From the NCBI RefSeq assembly GCF_009914755.1, contig NC_060928.1: a stretch of 64,000 nt of DNA; one strand, written 5' to 3'. The DNA comes from the human T2T-CHM13v2.0 reference genome, Homo sapiens. A program made the position numbers and the translations under genes. Numbering within the stretch: the first letter of the stretch is position 1; the number at the start of each line of letters is the position of its first letter. A model generated the notes under the pieces. That model made no database searches, had not been told where the DNA came from, and saw only the letters and a list, made by a program, of their open reading frames with translations. Positions 13,766-50,709 of the stretch are shown piece after piece.

Positions 13766-14125
13766 GGCCGGGAGCAGTGGCTCATGCTTGTAATCCCAGC
13801 ACTTTGGGAGGCCGAGACGGTCGGATCACTTGAGGTCAGGAGTTTGAGACCAGCCTAGCCAACATTGTGAAACCCTGTCTCAACTAAAAATACATAAAAT
13901 TATCTGGGTGTGGTGGCTCACGCCTATAATCCCAGCTACTCAGAAGGCTAGGGTGGGAGGAGCTTGAAGTGGGGCTGAGGTGGGAGGAGCTTGAGGTGGG
14001 GCTGAGCTTCAACCCAGGAGGAGGAGGTTGCGGTGAGCTGAGATGTGTCACTGCACTCCAGCCTGGGTGACAGAGTGAGAGTCTGTCTCAAAAAAACAAA
14101 AACCAAAAACAAAAAACAATAAGAA
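13766..14125 (+). mobile_element. AluS-type element with an internal 27-bp tandem duplication
   Basis: ggccgggagcagtggctca start, A-rich linker and A/C tail. Duplicated unit at 13946-13999. Confidence 0.92.
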
Positions 14126-16663: not shown

Positions 16664-16970
16664 ATTATTATTATTTTTTTTTTTTTTTGAGACGGAGTCT
16701 CGCTCTGTCGCCCAGGCTGGAGTGCAGTGGCGCGATCTTGGCTCACTGCAAGCTCCGCCTCCGGGTTCATACCATTCTCCCGCCTCAGCCTCCCGAGTAG
16801 CTGGGACTACAGGCGCCCGCCACCACGCCCAGCTAATTTTTTGTATTTTCAGTAGAGATGGGGTTTCACTGTGTTAGCCAGGCTTGTCTCGAACTCCTGA
16901 CCTCAAGTGATCCACCCGCCTCGGCCTCCCAAAGTGCTGGGATTACAGGCGTGAGCCACTGCACCCGGCC
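16664..16970 (-). mobile_element. Full-length Alu, mosaic AluY (right arm) / AluS (left arm)
   Basis: Antisense Alu ending cccggcc at 16970. TSD taagccatttactatt (16648-16663) / taagccatttattatt (16971-16986). Many CpGs retained. Confidence 0.95.
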
Positions 16971-23347: not shown

Positions 23348-23670
<323 letters not shown>

Positions 23671-33802: not shown

Positions 33803-34948
<1,146 letters not shown>

Positions 34949-43460: not shown

Positions 43461-43671
43461 TAGTCACACTTATTGATAATAAGTATTTAAATGTGATAGT
43501 TCCCTTGACCCCTTCACAGAACTCGCAAAGGTGTTGGCTTGTTTACTCAACCCAAAGCTTTCAACCCCTCACAGGAGGGGAAGCATACAGATGAGTGGGT
43601 GCAGGGGCTGGAATGAGTGCTTCTGGGCACTGGCAGAAGTGGCCTGGCAGCAGCGTCTAGGGGGGTCCCAC

Positions 43672-44084
43672 TGTGTCCAGAATTGGTGGGTGCTTGGTCT
43701 CACTGACTTCAAGAATGAAGCCATGGACACTCGCGGTGAGTGTTACAGTTCTTAAAGGCAGCGTGTCCGGAGTTTGTTCCTTCTGATGTTCAGATGTGTT
43801 CAGAGTTTCTTCCTTCTGGGGGGTTCGTGGTCTCACTGGCTCAGGAGTGAAGCTCCAGACGCGCCACCTTAAGAGCTGTAACACTCACTGCAAAGGTCTA
43901 CAGCTTCACTTCTGAGCCAGCAAGACCACGAACCCCCCAGAAGAAAGAAACTCCGAACACATCCGAACATCCGGAGGAACAAACTCCGGACACGCCGCCT
44001 TTAAGAACTGTAACAATTACCACGAGGGTCCACGGCTTCATTCTTGAAGTCAATGAGACCAAGAACCCACCAATTCCAGACACA
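43672..44084. repeat. 189-bp inverted repeat of the LTR12 3' end with a 35-nt spacer
   Basis: 43672-43860 is the reverse complement of 43896-44084, about 20 mismatches by hand count, many at CpG. Confidence 0.95.
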
Positions 44085-44087
44085 TTT

Positions 44088-44105
44088 TGGCAACCCAGAT
44101 GGGAC
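44088..44105 (+). promoter_or_regulatory. Primer-binding site, tRNA-Arg type
   Basis: tggcaacccagatgggac, 3 nt after the LTR-terminal CA. ERV9 is known to use tRNA-Arg. Confidence 0.85.
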
Positions 44106-45315
44106 AATCGCCTATCGCTGAGTGCTGAGACCATCACCCATAGCTGAGTGGCGAGACAATCACCTATCGCCAAGCAGTGAGTACCATCGGACCCCTTTCG
44201 CTTGCTACTCTGTCCTATTTTTCCTTAGAATTCGGGGGCTAAATACCGGGCACCTGTCGGCCAGTTAAAAGCAACTAGCGCAGTCGCTGGACTAAAGATA
44301 CGGGTGTCAGGCTTTCTGGGAAAGGGCTCTCTAACAACCTCTGCCTCTTCAGAGTTGGGACCGTTGGTTTGCCTAGAACCAGCTTCCACTTTTCCTGTAC
44401 TTCTGGGCTGAGCCAAGCATTGACAGAGAGGAAAGCCATGCAGCTCCGGGGTACCGACAACAAGCTGGTTGACCCTGCGGCCATGAGCGGAACTCTCAAA
44501 GTCATGTTGCCCAAGCGAGACTCGCCCCTCTATCCTATCTATCCTGACCCTTACCCCTGGGTCCTAATGCCTGCCAAACTTCCTCTCGCCTCTCTTCTCA
44601 GAGGTTAGTCCTGCTTCTAAAAATTGCTACCTGTGTCTGGTGCTTTTCTAGTTTCTCCTATAAGAATGATTTCTAGTATAAACTCCAGGACTCTGTTACC
44701 TTCTTTAGGCACCTGGGCTCACCAATCAGAATGACATAATTTTGGCCCAAAGTCCCACTGTAGTGGGTATTACATGGAATTTTAGGATCCCTCCTCAGAC
44801 TAACAGGCCTAACAAAAGCTATTCGTGAAGCTAGGATATGGGGAGCCTCAGAAATTGTATCCTTCCTATTCATATAAGTGACGACAAAAGGTGTCACTCT
44901 TCCAACCCTGGAGATCCCTTCCCTCCCTCAAGGTATGGCCCACCACTTCATTTTTGGGGCATATCATCTTTATAGGACAGGGGTAAAGTCCCAATACTAA
45001 CAGGAGAACGCTTAGGACTCTAACAGGTTTTCAAGAATGCATTGGTAAGGGCCACTAAATCCGATTTTTCTTGATCAGTCCTCCTCATGGTCTAGGAGGA
45101 CAGGCAAGGGTGCAGGTTTTCGAGAATGCATCGGTAAGGGCCACAAAATCCGACCTTCTTTGGTCCTCCATGTGGCCTGGGAGGAAAACTAGTGTTTCTG
45201 CTGCTGCATCAGTGAGCGCAACTATTCCTATCAGCAGGGTCCAGGGACCGTTGCAGGTTCTTGGGCAGGCGGAGAAACAAAGCAAACCAAAACCATGGGT
45301 GGTTTTGTCTTTCAG

Positions 45316-46720
45316 ATGGGAAACACTCAGGCATCAACAGGCTTACTCTTGAAATGCATCCTAAGCCATTGGGAACAATTTGATCCAAAACCCTGAAAAA
45401 GAGGCAGCTCATTTTTTCTGCACTATGGCTTGGTGCTAATATTCTCTCTCTGATGGGGAAAAATGGCCACCTGAGGGAAGTACAAATTACAATACTGTCC
45501 TGCAGCTTGACCTTTTCTGTAAGAGGTAAGGCAAATGGAGTGAAATACCTTATGTCCAAGCTTTCTTTTCATTGAAGGAGAATACACAACTATGCAAAGC
45601 TTGCAATTTACATCCCACAGGAGGACCTCTCAGCTTATCCCCATATGGTAGCCTACCTATAGCTCCCCTTCCTATTAATGATAATCCTCTGCTAATCTCC
45701 CCTTCCCAGAAGGAAATAAGCAAAGAAATCTCCAAAGGACCACAAAACCCCCCGGGCTATCAGTTATGTCCCCTTGAAGCTGTAGGGGGAGGGGAATTTG
45801 GCCCAACCCGGGTACACGTTCCCTTGTCCCTCTCTGATTTAAAGCAGATCAAGGCAGACCTGGGGAAGTTTTCAGATTTTCCTGACAGGTTCATAGATGT
45901 CCTACAGGGTCTAGGGCAAACCTTTGACCTCGCTTGGGGAGATGTCTTGCTACTGTTAGATCAAACCCTGGCCTTTAATGAAAAGAATGTGGCTTTAACT
46001 GCAGCCCAAGAGTTTGGAGATACCTGGTATCTTAGTCAAGTAAATGACAGAATGACAGCCGAAGAAAGGAACAAATTCCCTACTGGTCAGCAAGCCATCC
46101 CTAGTATGGATCCCCACTGGGACCTTGACTCAGATCATGGGGACTGGAGTCACAAACATCTGTTGACCTGTGTTCTAGAAGGACTAAGGAGAATTAAAAA
46201 AAGCCCATGAATTATTCAATGATTTCCACCATAACTCAGGGAAAGGAAGAAAATCCTGCCTTCCTCGAGTGGCTATGAGAGGCCTTAAGAAAATATACTC
46301 CCCTGTCACCCAAATCACTTGAGGGTCAATTGATTCTAAAACATGAGTTTATTACCCAATCCAGCCACAGATATCAGGAGAAAGCTCCAAAAGCAAGCCC
46401 TGGGCCCTGAACAAGATCTAGAGACATTACTAAACCTGGCAACCTTGGTGTTCTATCATAGGGACCAAGAGGAACAGGCCCAAAAGGAAAAGCGAGATCA
46501 GAGAAAGGCTGCAGCCTTAGTCATGGCCCTTGGACAAACAAACGTTGGTGGTTCAGAAAGGACAGAAAATGGAGCAGGCCAATCACCTGATAGGGCTTGT
46601 CATCAGTGTGGTTTACTAGGACACTTCAGAAAAGATTGTCCGATGAGAAACAAACTGCCCCCTTGTCCATGTCCACTATGCCGAGGCAATCACTGGAAGG
46701 TGCACTGCCCCAGAGGATGA
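45316..46720 (+). pseudogene. gag: ERV9 gag, disrupted
   Basis: ATG GGA (MGNTQA myristylation-type start). Capsid ORF 45572-46210 ([14 protein letters not shown]) and NC ORF 46343-46720 with CHQCGLLGHFRKDC. Stops and frameshifts lie between them. Confidence 0.9.
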
Positions 46721-46786
46721 AGATTCCCTGGGTCAGAAGCCCCCAACCAGATGATCCAACAACAAGACTGAGGGTGCCTGGGGCAA

Positions 46787-48994
46787 GTGCCAGGTCATGT
46801 CATCACCCTCACTGAGCCCCGGGTATGTTTAACTATTGAGGGCCAGGAAACTGACTTCCTCCTGGACACTGGTGCGGCCTTCTCGGTGTTAATCTCCTGT
46901 CCTGGAAGACTGTCCTCAAGGTCCGTGACCATCCAAGGAATCCTGGGACAGCTTGTAACCAGATATTTCTCCCATCTCCTCTGTTGTAACTGGGAGACTT
47001 TGCTCTTTTCACATGCCTTTCTTGTTATGCCTGAAAGTCCCACACCCTTATTAGGGAGGGATGTATTAGCCAAGGCTGGAGCTATTACCTACATGAATAT
47101 GGGGAACAAGTTACCCATTTGTTGTCCCCTACTTGAGGAGAGAATCAACCCTGAAGTCTGGGCATTGGAAGGACAATTTGGAAGGGCAAAAAATGCCCAC
47201 CCATTTCAAATCAGGTTAAAAGATCCCACCACTTTTCCTTTTCAAAGGCAATATCCCTTTAGGCCTGAAGCTCACAAAGGATTAAAGAATATTGTTAAAC
47301 ATTTAAAAGCTCAAGGCTTAGTAAGGAAATGCAGCAGTCCCTACAACACCTCAATTCTAGGAGTACAAAAACCAAACGGTCAGTGGAGGCTAGTGCAAGA
47401 TCTTAGACTCATCAATGAGGCAGTAATTCCTCTATATCCAGTTGTACCCAACCCCTATACCCTGCTCTCTCAAATACCAGAGGAAGCAGAATGGTTCATG
47501 GCTCTGGACCTCAAGGATGCCTTCTTCTGTATTCCCCTGCACTCTGACTCCCAGTTCCTCTTTGCCTTTGAGGATCCCACAGACCACACGTCCCAACTTA
47601 CAGGGACGGTCTTGCCCCAAGGGTTTAGGGATAGCCCTCATCTATTTGGTCAGGCACTGGCCCAAGATCTAGGCCACTTCTCAAATCCAGGCACTCTGGT
47701 CCTTCAATATGTGGATGATTTACTTTTGGCTACTAGTTCAGAAGCCTCGTGCGAGCAGGCTACTCCAGATCTCTTGAACTTTCTAACTAATCAAGGGTAC
47801 AAGGTGTCTAGGTTGAAGGCCCAACTTTGCCTACAGGAGGTCAAATATCTAGGCCTAATCTTAGCCAGAGGGACCAGGGCCCTCAGCAAGGAATGAAAAC
47901 AGCCTATACTGGCTTACCCTCACCCTAAGACATTAAAACAGTTGTGGGGGTTCCTTGGAATTACCAGCTTTTGCCGACTATGGATCCCCAGATATAGCGA
48001 GATAGCCAGGCCCCTCTATACTCTAATTAAAGAAACCCAGAGGGCAAATAATCATCTAGTAGAATGGGAACCAGAGGCAGAAACAACCTTCAAAACCTTA
48101 AAGCAGGCCCTAGTGCAAGCTCCAGCTTTAAGCTTTCCCACAGGACAAAACTTCTCTTTATACATCACAGAGAGAGCTAGGACAGCTCTTGGAGTCCTTA
48201 CTTAGACTCGTGGGACAACCCCACAATTGGTGGCATACCTAAGTAAGGAAATTGATGTAGTAGAAAAGGCAGTCCTCACTGTTTAAGGGTATTTGCAGCA
48301 GTGGCCGTCTTAGTGTCAGAGGCTATCAAAATAATACAAGGAAAGGATTTCACTGTCTGGACTACTCATGATGTAAATGGCATACTAGTTGCCAAAGGAA
48401 GTTTATGGCTATCAGACAACTGCCTACTTAGATACCAGGCGCTACCCCTTGAGGGACCGGTGCTTCAAATACACACATGCATGGCCCTCAACCCTGCCAC
48501 TTTTCTCCCAGAGGATGGGGAACCAATCGAGCATGACTGCCAACAAATTATAGTCCAGACTTATGCCACCTGATATGATGTCTTAGAAGTCCCCTTAACT
48601 AATCCTGACCTTAACCTATATACCAATGGAAGTTCATTTGCAGAGAATGGGATACGAAGGGCAGGTTACGCCATAGTTAGTGACGTAACCATAGTTGAAA
48701 GTAAGCCTCTTCCCCCAGGGACCAGTGCCCAGTTAGCAGAACTAGTGGCACTTACCTGAGCCTTAGAACTGGGAAAGGGAGAAAGAATAAATGTGTACAC
48801 AGATAGCAAGTATGCTTATCTAATCCTACATGCCCATGCTGCAATATGGAAAGAATGGGAGTTCCTAACCTCTGGGAACCCCCACTGGATGCCACAGGAA
48901 AGTTATGGAGTTATTGCACTTGGTGCAGGAACCCAAAGAGGTGGCAGTCTTGCACTGCCATAGCCATCAAAAATGGGAAGGAGAGGGGAGAACA
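46787..48994 (+). pseudogene. pol: ERV9 pro-pol, open for 369 codons (46787-47896), then disrupted and truncated in RNase H
   Basis: LLDTGA and LLGRD (protease); DLKDAFF, LPQGFRDSP and YVDD (RT). Later fragments have stops. No integrase. Confidence 0.93.
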
Positions 48995-50709
48995 CCATGA
49001 CCCCTGGAGCCACAGAAGGCGTGTGTTACAGTGTGCTCTTTTAGCTTTGCTATCCACAGACAGATTAAGCGCCTAACAGCTCAGTGGAGGGTCAGGGTGA
49101 CAGCCTTTTGCACCCACCCTCTTGAAACCCAAGTTCTTGTCTGGTGTCCAGGAAGAATGAGGTTGTGTGAATGAATTGAAGGGTGGTGAATAAGGAGGAT
49201 TTTCTTGAAGGGTGGATGTGGCTCTCAGTGGGAAAAGGAGATGGGAAGGGGATGTAGTGGGAAGATGGCCTTCCCCTGGAGTTCAGCCATCCCTGCAAAG
49301 TCCTGCCGTGAAGCTATTCCTGTAAAGTAAAGCTGCTTCTCTCCAAATCTGGTTGCATCTTCTCTTCACTCCTTCTCTGCTGCTCTGCCATGCTGCCACT
49401 CTGCTGCACTGCCAGTGGAGCCTGGGGTTTTTATGAGTACAGGATGGTGGGTCTGGTGGGCTAAAAACAACATCCAAGCAGGAAAACAAGAACGCATTTT
49501 CTCACTTTCGGCCGTGCGTCCAGGCTTGAGGATAAGGCTTCACCAGGGACCCCACCACTTTCTGCCTAGTATTTCCCCGCCTTCTGTCTGTATCAACATG
49601 GTGCTTAGGGCCCTTGTTCTTTCTTCCAATCACAAGTTTACCATAGAAATTTTGTTGAAGAACTTCAAGAATCCTTTCATAAGTATCTTCTTTGATATCT
49701 TTGATAATGATGAATGTTGTCTTTAAATAAGTTTTCTTTGTTCAAGGAACCAAAGGCTAGCATGAACTGGAACAGAGGTAGAGCAAAGTTGAGACAACTT
49801 TATTTATATTAAAATAATAATTTGGTAAACTCCAGGAGAAGTGCTCTAACTTTACTGACATTTATATTTTGACCCTTAAAATGGACAATATGGGGTAGGA
49901 TGTTCAATTAGAGCACAGAAAAATTGGGGAAAAGACAAATCTCTGCTATCAAAAAGAAGATGCTGGAAGGCTACCTTCTTGAATAAGATTACTTGGGATA
50001 TAAAATCTCACATGGAAAGAAAGAAAAAGAAGATTCTTTGCCTGGCTAACTGGAATTAATTCTTCACTCTCTAGTTGCTCTTAAAGCATCTACTTTCATT
50101 CATTCAGCAGACAATTTTGAGTATCACTTTGTGTCAGACACGATTCTTAACTTTAGAAATCTACAATAATAATGATTATGAGAGTAGACAAATTTCTTGC
50201 TTTTAGGGAACTTACTTTCTAGGGAAATAAGGCAGAAATAAACAAATAAGAAAATAAATATATAACATTCCAAACAAAATTTGGAATGAGTGTTAGGAAC
50301 GTTCATTCAACATAATTATTTCACATTTATTATGTGCCACGTGCTATCTCAGATCTTGAAAATACAAAGAAGCAAAAAACGTTCTACCCTTGGGAATTTA
50401 CAGTGGGAAACATACACAGGAAAGGTTAAAAAAAAAGTTTCGCAGAACAGATGTAAAATGCAGGAATTTATGACATTCTGGTTACTCAGATTCTATCCTA
50501 GTGTCATGATAATTCGGAAGAGACCATCAGGGTGAGCCATCTTTGATTCATCCTCAGAGCTGGGGGCAATGTTGTAGTCCAGTAAATACAGTACCTGATC
50601 AATTGGCAGCCACATGCTTGATGATATGACTTCTCATTACTGAATTTAGATATATTTTTATAATGTCAAAGCAACTGAGAAGTGAAAGAGCTATGGATAT
50701 TCTATAGAG

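What the first reader, a model, noticed from the sequence alone, without database searches (positions are those of the whole stretch)
43668..48998. ERV9 with a fold-back LTR hairpin, no U3 or 3' LTR, an internal CA end and an apparent TSD: a possible fossil of an aberrant reverse-transcription product
Seen: the insert starts exactly at an inverted LTR terminus (TGTG, 43672) and runs 189 bp antisense. It switches to sense LTR at ctccagac (43853-43860), which can pair with gtctacag 35 nt downstream. It then repeats the same 189 bp, followed by PBS-gag-pro-pol, and stops inside RNase H at ...gagaaCA (48994). The flanks are ccac and ccat(g), a 4-bp TSD with one CpG-type change, and the host LTR rejoins without evident loss. 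Known: gamma-like ERV integrases join CA-3' ends and commonly make 4-bp TSDs, and minus-strand strong-stop DNA begins at the U5 end. Inference: strong-stop DNA folded back on an intrinsic hairpin, recopied U5 and PBS, extended on a partial minus strand, and was integrated using one true U5 att end and one cryptic CA. The alternative is a post-integration inversion/deletion of a minus-strand provirus whose breakpoint fell exactly on the LTR terminus.
Basis: partly seen in the sequence, partly recalled or inferred. Interest (0 to 1): 0.8.

Follow-up and report, generated by a model that had tools for sequence, protein, structure and literature searches.

The report
Fold-back ERV9 fragment inserted in one step
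A 5.3-kb piece of the ancient retrovirus ERV9, with one end folded back on itself and the other cut off inside a gene, appears to have been pasted into human chromosome 4 in a single integrase-type event, so it looks like a rare fossil of a faulty reverse-transcription product that still managed to integrate.

Summary
Window 43672-48994 is a 5,323-bp ERV9 fragment. It consists of 189 nt of inverted U5, then about 230 nt of sense U5, PBS, gag, pro and pol, and it ends at CA near the C-terminal end of RNase H. There is no U3, R, env or 3' LTR anywhere in the 64 kb. The insert begins TG and ends CA. It sits in an older repeat whose other copies run straight across the site, with one 4-bp duplication (CCAC/CCAT; the C-to-T change is at a CpG). 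Two normal ERV9 proviruses checked here also have TG..CA ends and 4-bp duplications. A single integrase-type insertion of an aberrant cDNA is therefore the best reading (about 0.6).

Self-primed strong-stop DNA acting as plus-strand primer predicts the 35-nt spacer in antisense orientation and the short arm next to gag. The opposite is seen. The simplest fit is a growing minus strand that jumped, at an 8-nt quasi-palindrome in U5, onto the 5' end of a minus-sense U5 strand and ran off at the tRNA-primer junction.

A new detail: the right end lies 2 nt after the insert's longest purine run (18 nt). No second such locus was found. This is a one-off curiosity of moderate interest.

The parts
43486..43667 (.). 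Left part of the older host interspersed repeat that was the target
   Evidence: Other genomic copies match window about 43486-43640 and go on into the right flank.
43668..43671 (.). [quoted passage not shown]
   Evidence: Host-repeat copies have these four columns once (for example CCAT or CCGC). The flank overlap is 4 bp in 4 of 9 copies and there is never a gap.
43672..43852 (-). Inverted copy of the last about 181 nt of the ERV9 LTR (U5), starting exactly at the LTR terminus (TG...)
   Evidence: Inverted repeat I1. Antisense blast matches to LTR ends of two other proviruses cover 43860->43671/43673. Alignment to 15 native copies.
43853..43860 (.). 8-nt junction overlap CTCCAGAC. It equals the native sense LTR at about -232..-225, and matches 7 of 8 positions of the antisense of native GTCTGCAG at -189..-182.
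   Evidence: Native copies read aaCTCCAGACgcgcc (sense) and gtctgcag. The 22-mer across the junction is unique in the genome.
43861..43895 (+). 35-nt spacer of the palindrome, in sense orientation and continuous with the PBS-proximal arm
   Evidence: A continuous sense alignment 43853-45791 to another provirus's 5' LTR-PBS-gag. Alignment.
43896..44084 (+). Sense copy of the last 189 nt of U5, ending ...GACACA
44085..44105 (+). TTT spacer and primer-binding site
   Evidence: Aligned with the U5/PBS junction of 15 other ERV9 proviruses.
44106..46771 (+). Leader and decayed gag. The zinc knuckle is at about 46592-46642.
   Evidence: Pfam zf-CCHC, E = 2.3e-4. Leader homology.
46772..48974 (+). Decayed pro-pol: protease about 46814-47083, RT about 47363-47860, RNase H about 48607-48873
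   Evidence: Pfam RVP 3.7e-11, RVT_1 5.7e-26, RNase_H 6.9e-5 and 4.2e-3, profile positions up to 92 of 141. 92.7% identity to another copy's pol over 47283-48997.
48975..48992 (+). 18-nt polypurine run, the longest in the insert, ending 2 nt before the insert's end
   Evidence: There are five purine runs of 12 nt or more on the + strand and this is the longest. The genuine ERV9 3' PPT read in 3 proviruses shares an AGAGGGG core.
48993..48994 (+). Terminal CA of the insert, an internal and non-att CA
   Evidence: Native copies continue CA|GCAGCAT...; the window continues CA|CCATGACC.
48995..48998 (.). Right copy of the target-site duplication (CCAT). Its last base sits in a CpG of the host repeat.
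   Evidence: The repeat family reads CCGCGAC or CCATGAC at this site.
48999..49600 (.). Right part of the host repeat
   Evidence: 67-74% identity over about 600 nt to all 9 fetched copies, directly adjoining the left-flank match.

Best explanation
About 10-30 million years ago (a rough estimate) an ERV9 particle made a faulty, sub-genomic DNA. Integrase inserted it in one concerted step into an older repeat. Three parts of this account carry different weight.

**1. One-step integrase-type insertion (shown or strongly implied).** The whole 5,323-bp block has TG...CA ends and is flanked by a 4-bp duplication of an otherwise unbroken host repeat.

**2. Origin of the left end (inferred; about 0.35-0.4 for this exact route).**
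- The growing 3' end of minus-strand DNA had already copied the PBS and about 232 nt of U5.
- It left its template and annealed by its last 8 nt (GTCTGGAG) to the near-complementary CTGCAGAC at -182..-189 of another minus-sense U5 strand.
- That strand was either its own 5' end, displaced during LTR completion, or free strong-stop DNA from the co-packaged genome.
- Copying then ran off at the tRNA-primer junction. This produced a genuine U5 att end in inverted orientation, and U3 and R were never made.

**3. Origin of the right end (inferred, weak).** It was a DNA end within a few nucleotides of an internal CA just after an 18-nt purine run in RNase H. It may have been the 3' end of a plus strand stalled at an internal plus-strand start. 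Integrase used it in place of a U3 end.
For: **Host continuity and duplication.** All 9 host-repeat copies match both flanks contiguously. The overlap is 4 bp in 4 of 9 and no copy shows loss. Both duplicate copies share the derived A. The only difference, C versus T, is at a CpG in the right copy only.

**Exact ends.** The left end is the LTR terminus. The right end is CA, with no homology between the native continuation and the host.

**What normal ERV9 does.** Normal proviruses have TG..CA ends and a 4-bp duplication in 2 of 2 evaluable cases out of 4 examined.

**Published context.** A correct-length duplication is the mark of concerted integrase joining. One-ended events give large duplications or deletions (passages of PMC2857682; passages of PMC5041404).

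**No partner sequence nearby.** No U3, env or IN lies elsewhere in the 64 kb.

**Both arms come from one source.** They share one base seen in 0 of 14 native copies, and then carry 9 and 4 private changes.

**Junction.** It has an 8-nt overlap in its sense-strand form. The spacer is sense and the long arm adjoins the PBS. The native minus-sense 51-mer ending at -232 pairs its two terminal 8-mers in 4 of 5 copies, with dG -3.8 to -8.4 kcal/mol.

**Purine run.** It ends 2 nt before the insert's end and is the longest of 5 runs in the insert. Plus-strand synthesis is discontinuous in many retroviruses (passage of PMC3187697).
Against: - This is a single locus. The junction 22-mer (up to 2 mismatches) and a gapped palindromic pattern hit only this site in the genome. 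0 of 29 other 5' LTR-PBS loci carry an inverted U5. The mechanism is therefore not shown to recur.
- The direction of the switch rests on the spacer orientation and on one base of the 8-mer. One native copy (L068) carries GTCTGGAG, which would make the overlap a perfect 8 of 8 and that base uninformative.
- In full-length minus-strand folds the 8-mers stay paired in only 2 of 5 copies.
- No other ERV9 copy examined ends at the purine run. 28 of 29 continue, as do all 4 other exact 19-mer matches with a non-G next base. The purine-run idea is post hoc.
- The route leaves flaps or a branch that host repair must have removed, and nothing tests that.
- No orthologous empty site could be examined. 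The duplication is inferred from paralogous repeat copies, and the left flank needs a 1-nt indel to align.
Confidence: 0.6

Rival explanations
1. Minus-strand strong-stop DNA folded back on its own hairpin (self-priming), recopied U5 and the tRNA to give PBS(+), transferred to a minus strand and was extended through gag-pro-pol. It was then integrated through the U5 end and a cryptic CA.
For: [quoted passage not shown] The hairpin exists in native minus-sense U5 DNA. Both switch points are in U5. The left terminus is the tRNA-primed end.
Against: This route predicts a long antisense arm, an antisense spacer and a short sense arm next to the PBS. The window has the mirror isomer: sense LTR is uninterrupted from 43853 to the PBS, and the inverted arm is the short one. 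It can be rescued only by one more full copying of the hairpin by a second tRNA-primed strand. The review also states that self-primed products were not detected in endogenous reactions.
Confidence: 0.1
2. One-ended integration or capture without integrase. Integrase joined only the U5 end (or neither end), and host repair joined a broken cDNA end to the chromosome. On this view the CA and the 4-bp repeat at the right junction are coincidences.
For: Host enzymes can insert a bad second end efficiently once one end is integrated (passages of PMC5041404; discussion of PMC12657518). The right end has no att-like sequence beyond CA.
Against: Such events typically give duplications of hundreds of base pairs, deletions or inversions of host DNA. 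Here the host repeat is continuous with a duplication of the family's own length. The insert ends exactly in CA, which has a 1 in 16 chance, and there is no microhomology with the host.
Confidence: 0.13
3. Rearrangement after integration. A normal two-LTR ERV9 provirus in either orientation was later reshaped by inversion and deletions, for example by replication template switching at the quasi-palindrome.
For: Host replication can also use the 8-nt quasi-palindrome for fold-back switching. Old proviruses often carry deletions.
Against: - It needs an inversion plus two deletions, with at least one breakpoint (two for a plus-orientation provirus) falling exactly on the provirus-host boundary while both copies of the duplication are kept.
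- No U3, env or IN remnant lies anywhere in the 64 kb.
- A fold-back made in the chromosome would not stop at the LTR terminus.
Confidence: 0.06
4. Assembly artefact: the palindrome is a chimeric or fold-back read artefact in the assembly.
For: Palindromes are a known product of some library artefacts. No reads could be inspected here.
Against: The arms differ at 20 of 189 positions in a pattern of old decay: 15 transitions, many at CpG sites, and 9 versus 4 private changes. An artefactual fold-back would have identical arms.
Confidence: 0.01

Closest known systems
Self-primed minus-strand strong-stop DNA (TAR-dependent self-priming in HIV-1 in-vitro reactions)
   Same: [quoted passage not shown] This makes an inverted duplication that ends at the tRNA-primer junction.
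   Different: It is described as an in-vitro dead end that nucleocapsid suppresses (PMC6088434, section 5.1). Here the product is integrated. The isomer is the mirror image of the simple self-primed product. The switch is in mid-U5, not at the R end.
Defective HIV-1 proviruses from aberrant strand transfers (asymmetric LTRs, inversions, deletions)
   Same: These are errors of reverse transcription fixed by integration, with missing or partial LTRs. Hotspots in LTRs and near the central PPT are reported (PMC12657518 introduction; PMC9278108).
   Different: Those reports concern deletions and a few unspecified inversions. PMC12657518 says integration of products lacking the U3 terminus could not be demonstrated without the matched ends and integration sites. 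This fossil has both ends and the site, in an ancient gamma-like ERV.
Aberrant integrations with one bad viral DNA end (ASLV vectors, HIV with integrase inhibitors or integrase mutants; XMRV clone lacking the U3 CA)
   Same: One normal att end plus one abnormal, often truncated, viral end.
   Different: Those give long duplications (for example 273 bp), deletions or inversions of host DNA. Here the duplication is the normal 4 bp, which suggests integrase joined both ends.
L1 twin priming (5' inversions of LINE-1 and processed pseudogenes)
   Same: An inverted segment at one end, created during reverse transcription, within a single insertion flanked by a duplication.
   Different: There is no poly(A) tail or A-rich end. 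The ends are TG...CA at an LTR terminus, and the duplication is 4 bp as in normal ERV9. That twin priming has these features is recalled, not read here.
Central polypurine tract of lentiviruses / discontinuous plus strands
   Same: An internal purine tract in pol where a plus-strand discontinuity could leave a free 3' end (PMC3187697, section 1.2).
   Different: Use of the ERV9 tract as a primer is not shown. No other copy examined ends there. The retained side is upstream of the tract.

Membership tests
ERV9 / LTR12 provirus (class I, gamma-like ERV) | LTR12-type U5 sequence next to the ERV9 PBS and leader | tested here: met
   82-91% identity of 44085-44300 to the 40 scored loci. U5 aligns to 15 native copies. 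90% identity over 43853-45791 to L062.
ERV9 / LTR12 provirus (class I, gamma-like ERV) | gag-pro-pol in the retroviral order | tested here: met
   zf-CCHC, RVP, RVT_1 and RNase_H in that order. All frames are broken by stops.
ERV9 / LTR12 provirus (class I, gamma-like ERV) | Two complete LTRs (U3-R-U5) bracketing the internal region | tested here: not met
   Only the last about 230 nt of U5 (sense) and 189 nt (inverted) are present. There is no AATAAA, and no U3, env, IN or 3' LTR in the window.
Concerted retroviral integrase insertion | Insert ends 5'-TG...CA-3' | tested here: met
   TGTG at 43672 and ...AACA at 48994. The boundaries are fixed by native copies.
Concerted retroviral integrase insertion | Target-site duplication of the family's own length, with no loss of host DNA | tested here: met
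   4 bp here and 4 bp in 2 of 2 evaluable normal ERV9 proviruses. This was tested on paralogous repeat copies, not on an orthologous empty site.
Concerted retroviral integrase insertion | att sequences (LTR termini) at both ends | tested here: not met
   The left end is a true U5 terminus. The right end is internal pol sequence with only the CA in common.
   Switch points are at about -232 and -189. AATAAA lies upstream of the B-type repeats in native copies. U5 carries the B repeats (PMC11853044, sequence-characteristics section).
   The spacer is sense and the long arm adjoins the PBS.
L1-mediated insertion with twin priming | Poly(A) tail and a long, variable duplication at an A/T-rich nick site | tested here: not met
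   No A-tract at either end. The 30 nt outside each end are not A/T-rich.
Autointegration product | LTR termini joined to internal viral sequence | tested here: not met
   The only LTR terminus abuts host DNA. The internal junction joins U5 -189 to U5 -232, not a terminus.

The most novel reading that the evidence does not exclude
This locus would be natural proof that a retroviral intasome can carry out a fully concerted, correct-length integration while pairing one U5 att end with a non-att 3' CA-OH. That CA-OH would have been created by a plus-strand discontinuity at an internal, cPPT-like purine tract in ERV9 pol. The U5 end itself would have been made by the minus strand switching onto its own displaced 5' end during LTR completion. 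If so, ERV9 had a functional internal plus-strand origin, and incomplete-LTR reverse transcripts can enter the germ line.
Probability: 0.2. Interest if true: 0.7.

Novelty: new variant of a known kind. Interest (0 to 1): 0.5.

Why it matters
Work on HIV reservoirs infers many aberrant strand transfers. One recent paper states that integration of products lacking a proper LTR terminus cannot be demonstrated without the matched viral ends and integration site (PMC12657518, discussion).

This fossil supplies both ends, the target site and the internal junction for one such product. It suggests three things:
- A single U5 att end plus an internal CA can be enough for a normal-looking integration.
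- Short quasi-palindromes in U5 can divert the minus strand.
- A purine tract in pol may mark a plus-strand break.

It also shows that TSD-flanked, LTR-less ERV fragments need not be deletion products. That matters for how such fragments are dated and classified. It remains a single locus, so its value is as a worked example and as a search image for genome-wide screens.

Tried and rejected
**Search for a second example.**
- The 22-mer across the junction, with up to 2 mismatches and both strands (so it covers both isomers), hit only this locus. The reversed control gave 0.
- A gapped palindromic U5 pattern with a gap of 300-330 hit only this locus. Exact 17-mers would also miss most old copies.
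- 0 of 29 other 5' LTR-PBS loci have an inverted U5 of 100 nt or more within 1.5 kb.

**Other ERV9 copies ending at the purine run.**
- There are 116 genome matches to the 19-mer plus one base, of which 100 are listed. The 4 other exact matches with a non-G next base all continue as native pol.
- About 14 listed one-mismatch rows with a non-G next base, and the 16 unlisted rows, were not inspected.

**Readings rejected.**
- L1-mediated insertion or twin priming: there is no poly(A).
- Autointegration: no LTR terminus is joined to viral DNA.
- Nested double insertion, or recombination between inverted LTRs: the junction joins -189 to -232 with no TG/CA.

**Resources that gave nothing.**
- Papers not held: La Mantia 1991, Oh 2006, Varadarajan 2013.

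**Literature searches for a described ERV or provirus with a U5 fold-back plus an internal CA end** found none. The library lacks most subscription-journal papers. I recall 1980s work on rearranged avian retroviral DNA (Olsen and Swanstrom) that may be relevant, but I could not find or read it.

**Limits.**
- The host repeat family could not be named, because no repeat library was available.
A full colinearity check against one complete provirus was therefore replaced by two partial ones and by distance: PBS to pol end is 4,909 bp here, against 4,894-4,983 bp in two others.


Full report
**What is there.**

Window 43672-48994 (5,323 bp) is ERV9.
- The repeat finder gives an inverted repeat with arms 43672-43860 and 43896-44084: 189 nt, 89% complementary, 35 nt apart. 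That is 20 mismatches of 189.
- As single-stranded DNA it folds at -185.6 kcal/mol, z = -30.8.
- Downstream come the TTT spacer and PBS, then a decayed gag with a zinc knuckle, protease, RT and RNase H in the normal order. Every frame is broken.
- The last Pfam RNase H match reaches profile position 92 of 141 at about 48873. The insert runs about 40 codons further, so the end is near the C-terminal end of the RNase H domain.
- No AATAAA lies in the LTR part. When the U3, env, IN and LTR of other proviruses are blasted against all 64 kb, only the two U5 arms match. U3, R, env and a 3' LTR are therefore absent, not displaced nearby.

**The boundaries are exact.**

On the left, TGTGTCC... is the reverse complement of the LTR's last bases, as seen in 15 native copies. 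What precedes it (…GTCCCAC) is not PBS-like.

On the right, 28 of 29 other ERV9 pol copies continue ...GAGAACA|GCAGCAT... (with point variants), whereas the window continues |CCATGACC. The 29th copy (L027) has a local gap. There is no microhomology between the native continuation and the host. The insert is thus 5'-TG...CA-3'.

**One insertion event.**

The flanks belong to an older interspersed repeat; 40 of 137 candidates were scored and all matched.
- All 9 copies fetched match the left flank and the right flank side by side.
- In a semi-global test the two flanks overlap on the repeat by 4 bp in 4 of 9 copies, by 2 bp in 2 of 9, and by 7, 8 or 11 bp in 3 of 9. The larger values reflect end ambiguity in diverged copies. 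There is never a gap.
- The family reads CCGC|GAC or CCAT|GAC at the site.
- The window has CCAC on the left and CCAT on the right. Both share the derived A, so that change predates insertion.
- The one difference is C to T in the right copy. Only there is that C followed by the host G, making it a CpG.
- The left flank needs a 1-nt indel to align.

Normal ERV9 proviruses read here have TG...CA ends and 4-bp duplications (GCAC and CTTT). That is 2 of 2 evaluable among 4 examined.

Published work ties a correct-length duplication to concerted joining of both ends by integrase. Uncoordinated or host-mediated joining of a bad end gives long duplications, deletions or inversions (passages of PMC2857682; passages of PMC5041404).

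A later rearrangement of a normal provirus would need an inversion, two deletions and at least one breakpoint exactly on the provirus-host boundary. I give that about 0.06.

An assembly artefact is very unlikely because the arms have decayed apart: 15 transitions among the 20 differences, many at CpG sites, with 9 and 4 private changes.

**The junction.**

Native LTR12 copies have, in U5, repeated units that end ...aaCTCCAGAC|GCGCC... and contain GTCTGCAG about 36 nt into the next unit.
- In the window the sense LTR is uninterrupted from 43853 (CTCCAGAC, about -232) to the PBS.
- The inverted copy runs from the terminus to about -181/-189.
- The 8-mer at 43853-43860 is therefore shared. It is the exact sense 8-mer and matches 7 of 8 positions of the antisense of GTCTGCAG.
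- In native minus-sense DNA ending at -232, the two 8-mers pair in the minimum-energy fold in 4 of 5 copies (dG -3.8 to -8.4 kcal/mol). In folds of the whole -1..-232 strand they pair in only 2 of 5.
- Both switch points are in U5. AATAAA lies about 45 nt upstream of the first repeat unit. The literature places the variable B repeats in U5 and calls R short (PMC11853044, sequence-characteristics section).

Suppose strong-stop DNA (antisense, 5' end at the U5 terminus) reached -232, folded on this hairpin and recopied U5 and PBS. The resulting strand would read antisense -1..-232, including an antisense spacer, then sense -181..-1, then PBS. The window reads antisense -1..-181, the 8-mer, sense -224..-1, then PBS. 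This is the mirror isomer.

The strand that has a long minus-sense stretch followed by a short plus-sense stretch is the bottom strand, and there the minus-sense U5 is continuous with PBS(-) and gag(-). The simplest single-switch account runs as follows:
- A minus strand had already copied the PBS and 232 nt of U5. Its template was plus-strand strong-stop DNA during LTR completion, or the 5' end of the second RNA.
- It jumped by its terminal GTCTGGAG onto CTGCAGAC of another minus-sense U5 strand and ran off that strand's 5' end.
- Because that 5' end is set by the tRNA primer, the run-off recreates a true U5 att end. This explains the exact terminus.
- The strand displaced during LTR completion is the minus strand's own 5' end. 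It is single-stranded and lies at the fork, which makes it a natural acceptor. Free strong-stop DNA from the co-packaged genome is the alternative.

The retained 8-mer is the nascent strand's version, as this account predicts. However, one native copy (L068) has GTCTGGAG. If the source element carried that variant, the overlap was a perfect 8 of 8 and this base is uninformative. The spacer orientation is the robust argument.

Mirror routes reach the same product with more steps and cannot be excluded from one fossil. Examples are an aborted 189-nt strong-stop DNA priming on another minus strand, or a second copying of a self-primed hairpin.

**The right end.**

The insert ends 2 nt after an 18-nt purine run (48975-48992). 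This is the longest of five runs of 12 nt or more in the insert.

The genuine ERV9 3' PPT, read in three proviruses, is a shorter run with the same AGAGGGG core, followed one base later by the LTR's TG. Since plus-strand synthesis is discontinuous in many retroviruses (PMC3187697, section 1.2), a plus strand stalled at an internal start would offer a recessed CA-3'OH.

Integrase can process a CA a few nucleotides from an end, and an alternative CA near an erroneous terminus has been proposed for HIV (PMC12657518, discussion).

This part is post hoc and weak. No other copy examined ends there.

**Rarity and age.**

The junction is unique in the assembly, and 0 of 29 other 5' LTR-PBS loci have an inverted U5.

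Both arms share one base absent from 14 native copies, which fits one source. Raw arm divergence is 10.6%, with at least 9 of the 20 differences at CpG-type sites. Using recalled neutral rates this means roughly 10-30 million years. That lies within the 30-to-6-million-year activity span given for ERV9 (PMC11853044, origin section).

**Comparison and verdict.**

The fossil works like known errors of reverse transcription:
- self-priming of strong-stop DNA (PMC6088434);
- aberrant strand transfers and asymmetric LTRs in HIV (PMC12657518; PMC9278108).

It also resembles 'one bad end' integrations (PMC5041404). It differs in three ways: the isomer, being fixed in a germ line, and having a normal-length duplication.

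My searches found no description of such an ERV. The library is incomplete, and older work on rearranged avian retroviral DNA that I recall could not be read.

I rate it a new variant of a known kind, interest 0.5. It is a clean, fully bounded example, but a single one.

Noticed in passing
L068 (G000:C23:116657472-116660678, minus strand), about -140 to +20 relative to its PBS: Another ERV9 provirus carries a 124-bp tandem duplication of the last about 100 nt of U5 plus the first about 20 nt of the PBS. The junction lies at a shared GAAGGGAC(AG)ACTCCAGAC stretch. This looks like a second, different template-switch footprint in the same U5 neighbourhood.
   Followed up: partly
L068, about -305 relative to its PBS: This copy has GTCTGGAG instead of GTCTGCAG, which makes a perfect 8-bp inverted repeat with CTCCAGAC. 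Such a variant in the source element would have strengthened the hairpin.
   Followed up: no
L042-L070, the 300 nt upstream of the PBS: Native LTR12 U5 comes in at least two length forms. In 5 of 15 aligned copies AATAAA lies about 45 nt before the penultimate repeat unit. 9 of 15 have an extra unit upstream, and the window's element is of this longer form.
   Followed up: partly
L059 (G000:C17:75799138-75802351), upstream of about -100 from its PBS: U5 is replaced upstream by CT-rich low-complexity sequence. The cause was not examined.
   Followed up: no
window 45024-45076 and 45113-45165: A 53-nt direct repeat, 85% identical and 89 nt apart, in the leader/gag region. A secondary blast hit of another provirus to 45113-45185 suggests it is native to ERV9.
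   Followed up: no
L027 (G000:C1:58050203-58053388): An ERV9 pol copy with a local gap beginning about 10 nt before the position where the window's insert ends, inside the purine run.
   Followed up: no
window 14049-14105, 16676-16733, 23372-23431, 34836-34893: Short matches to the host flank of another provirus (L074), probably a common short interspersed repeat and unrelated to the finding.
   Followed up: no
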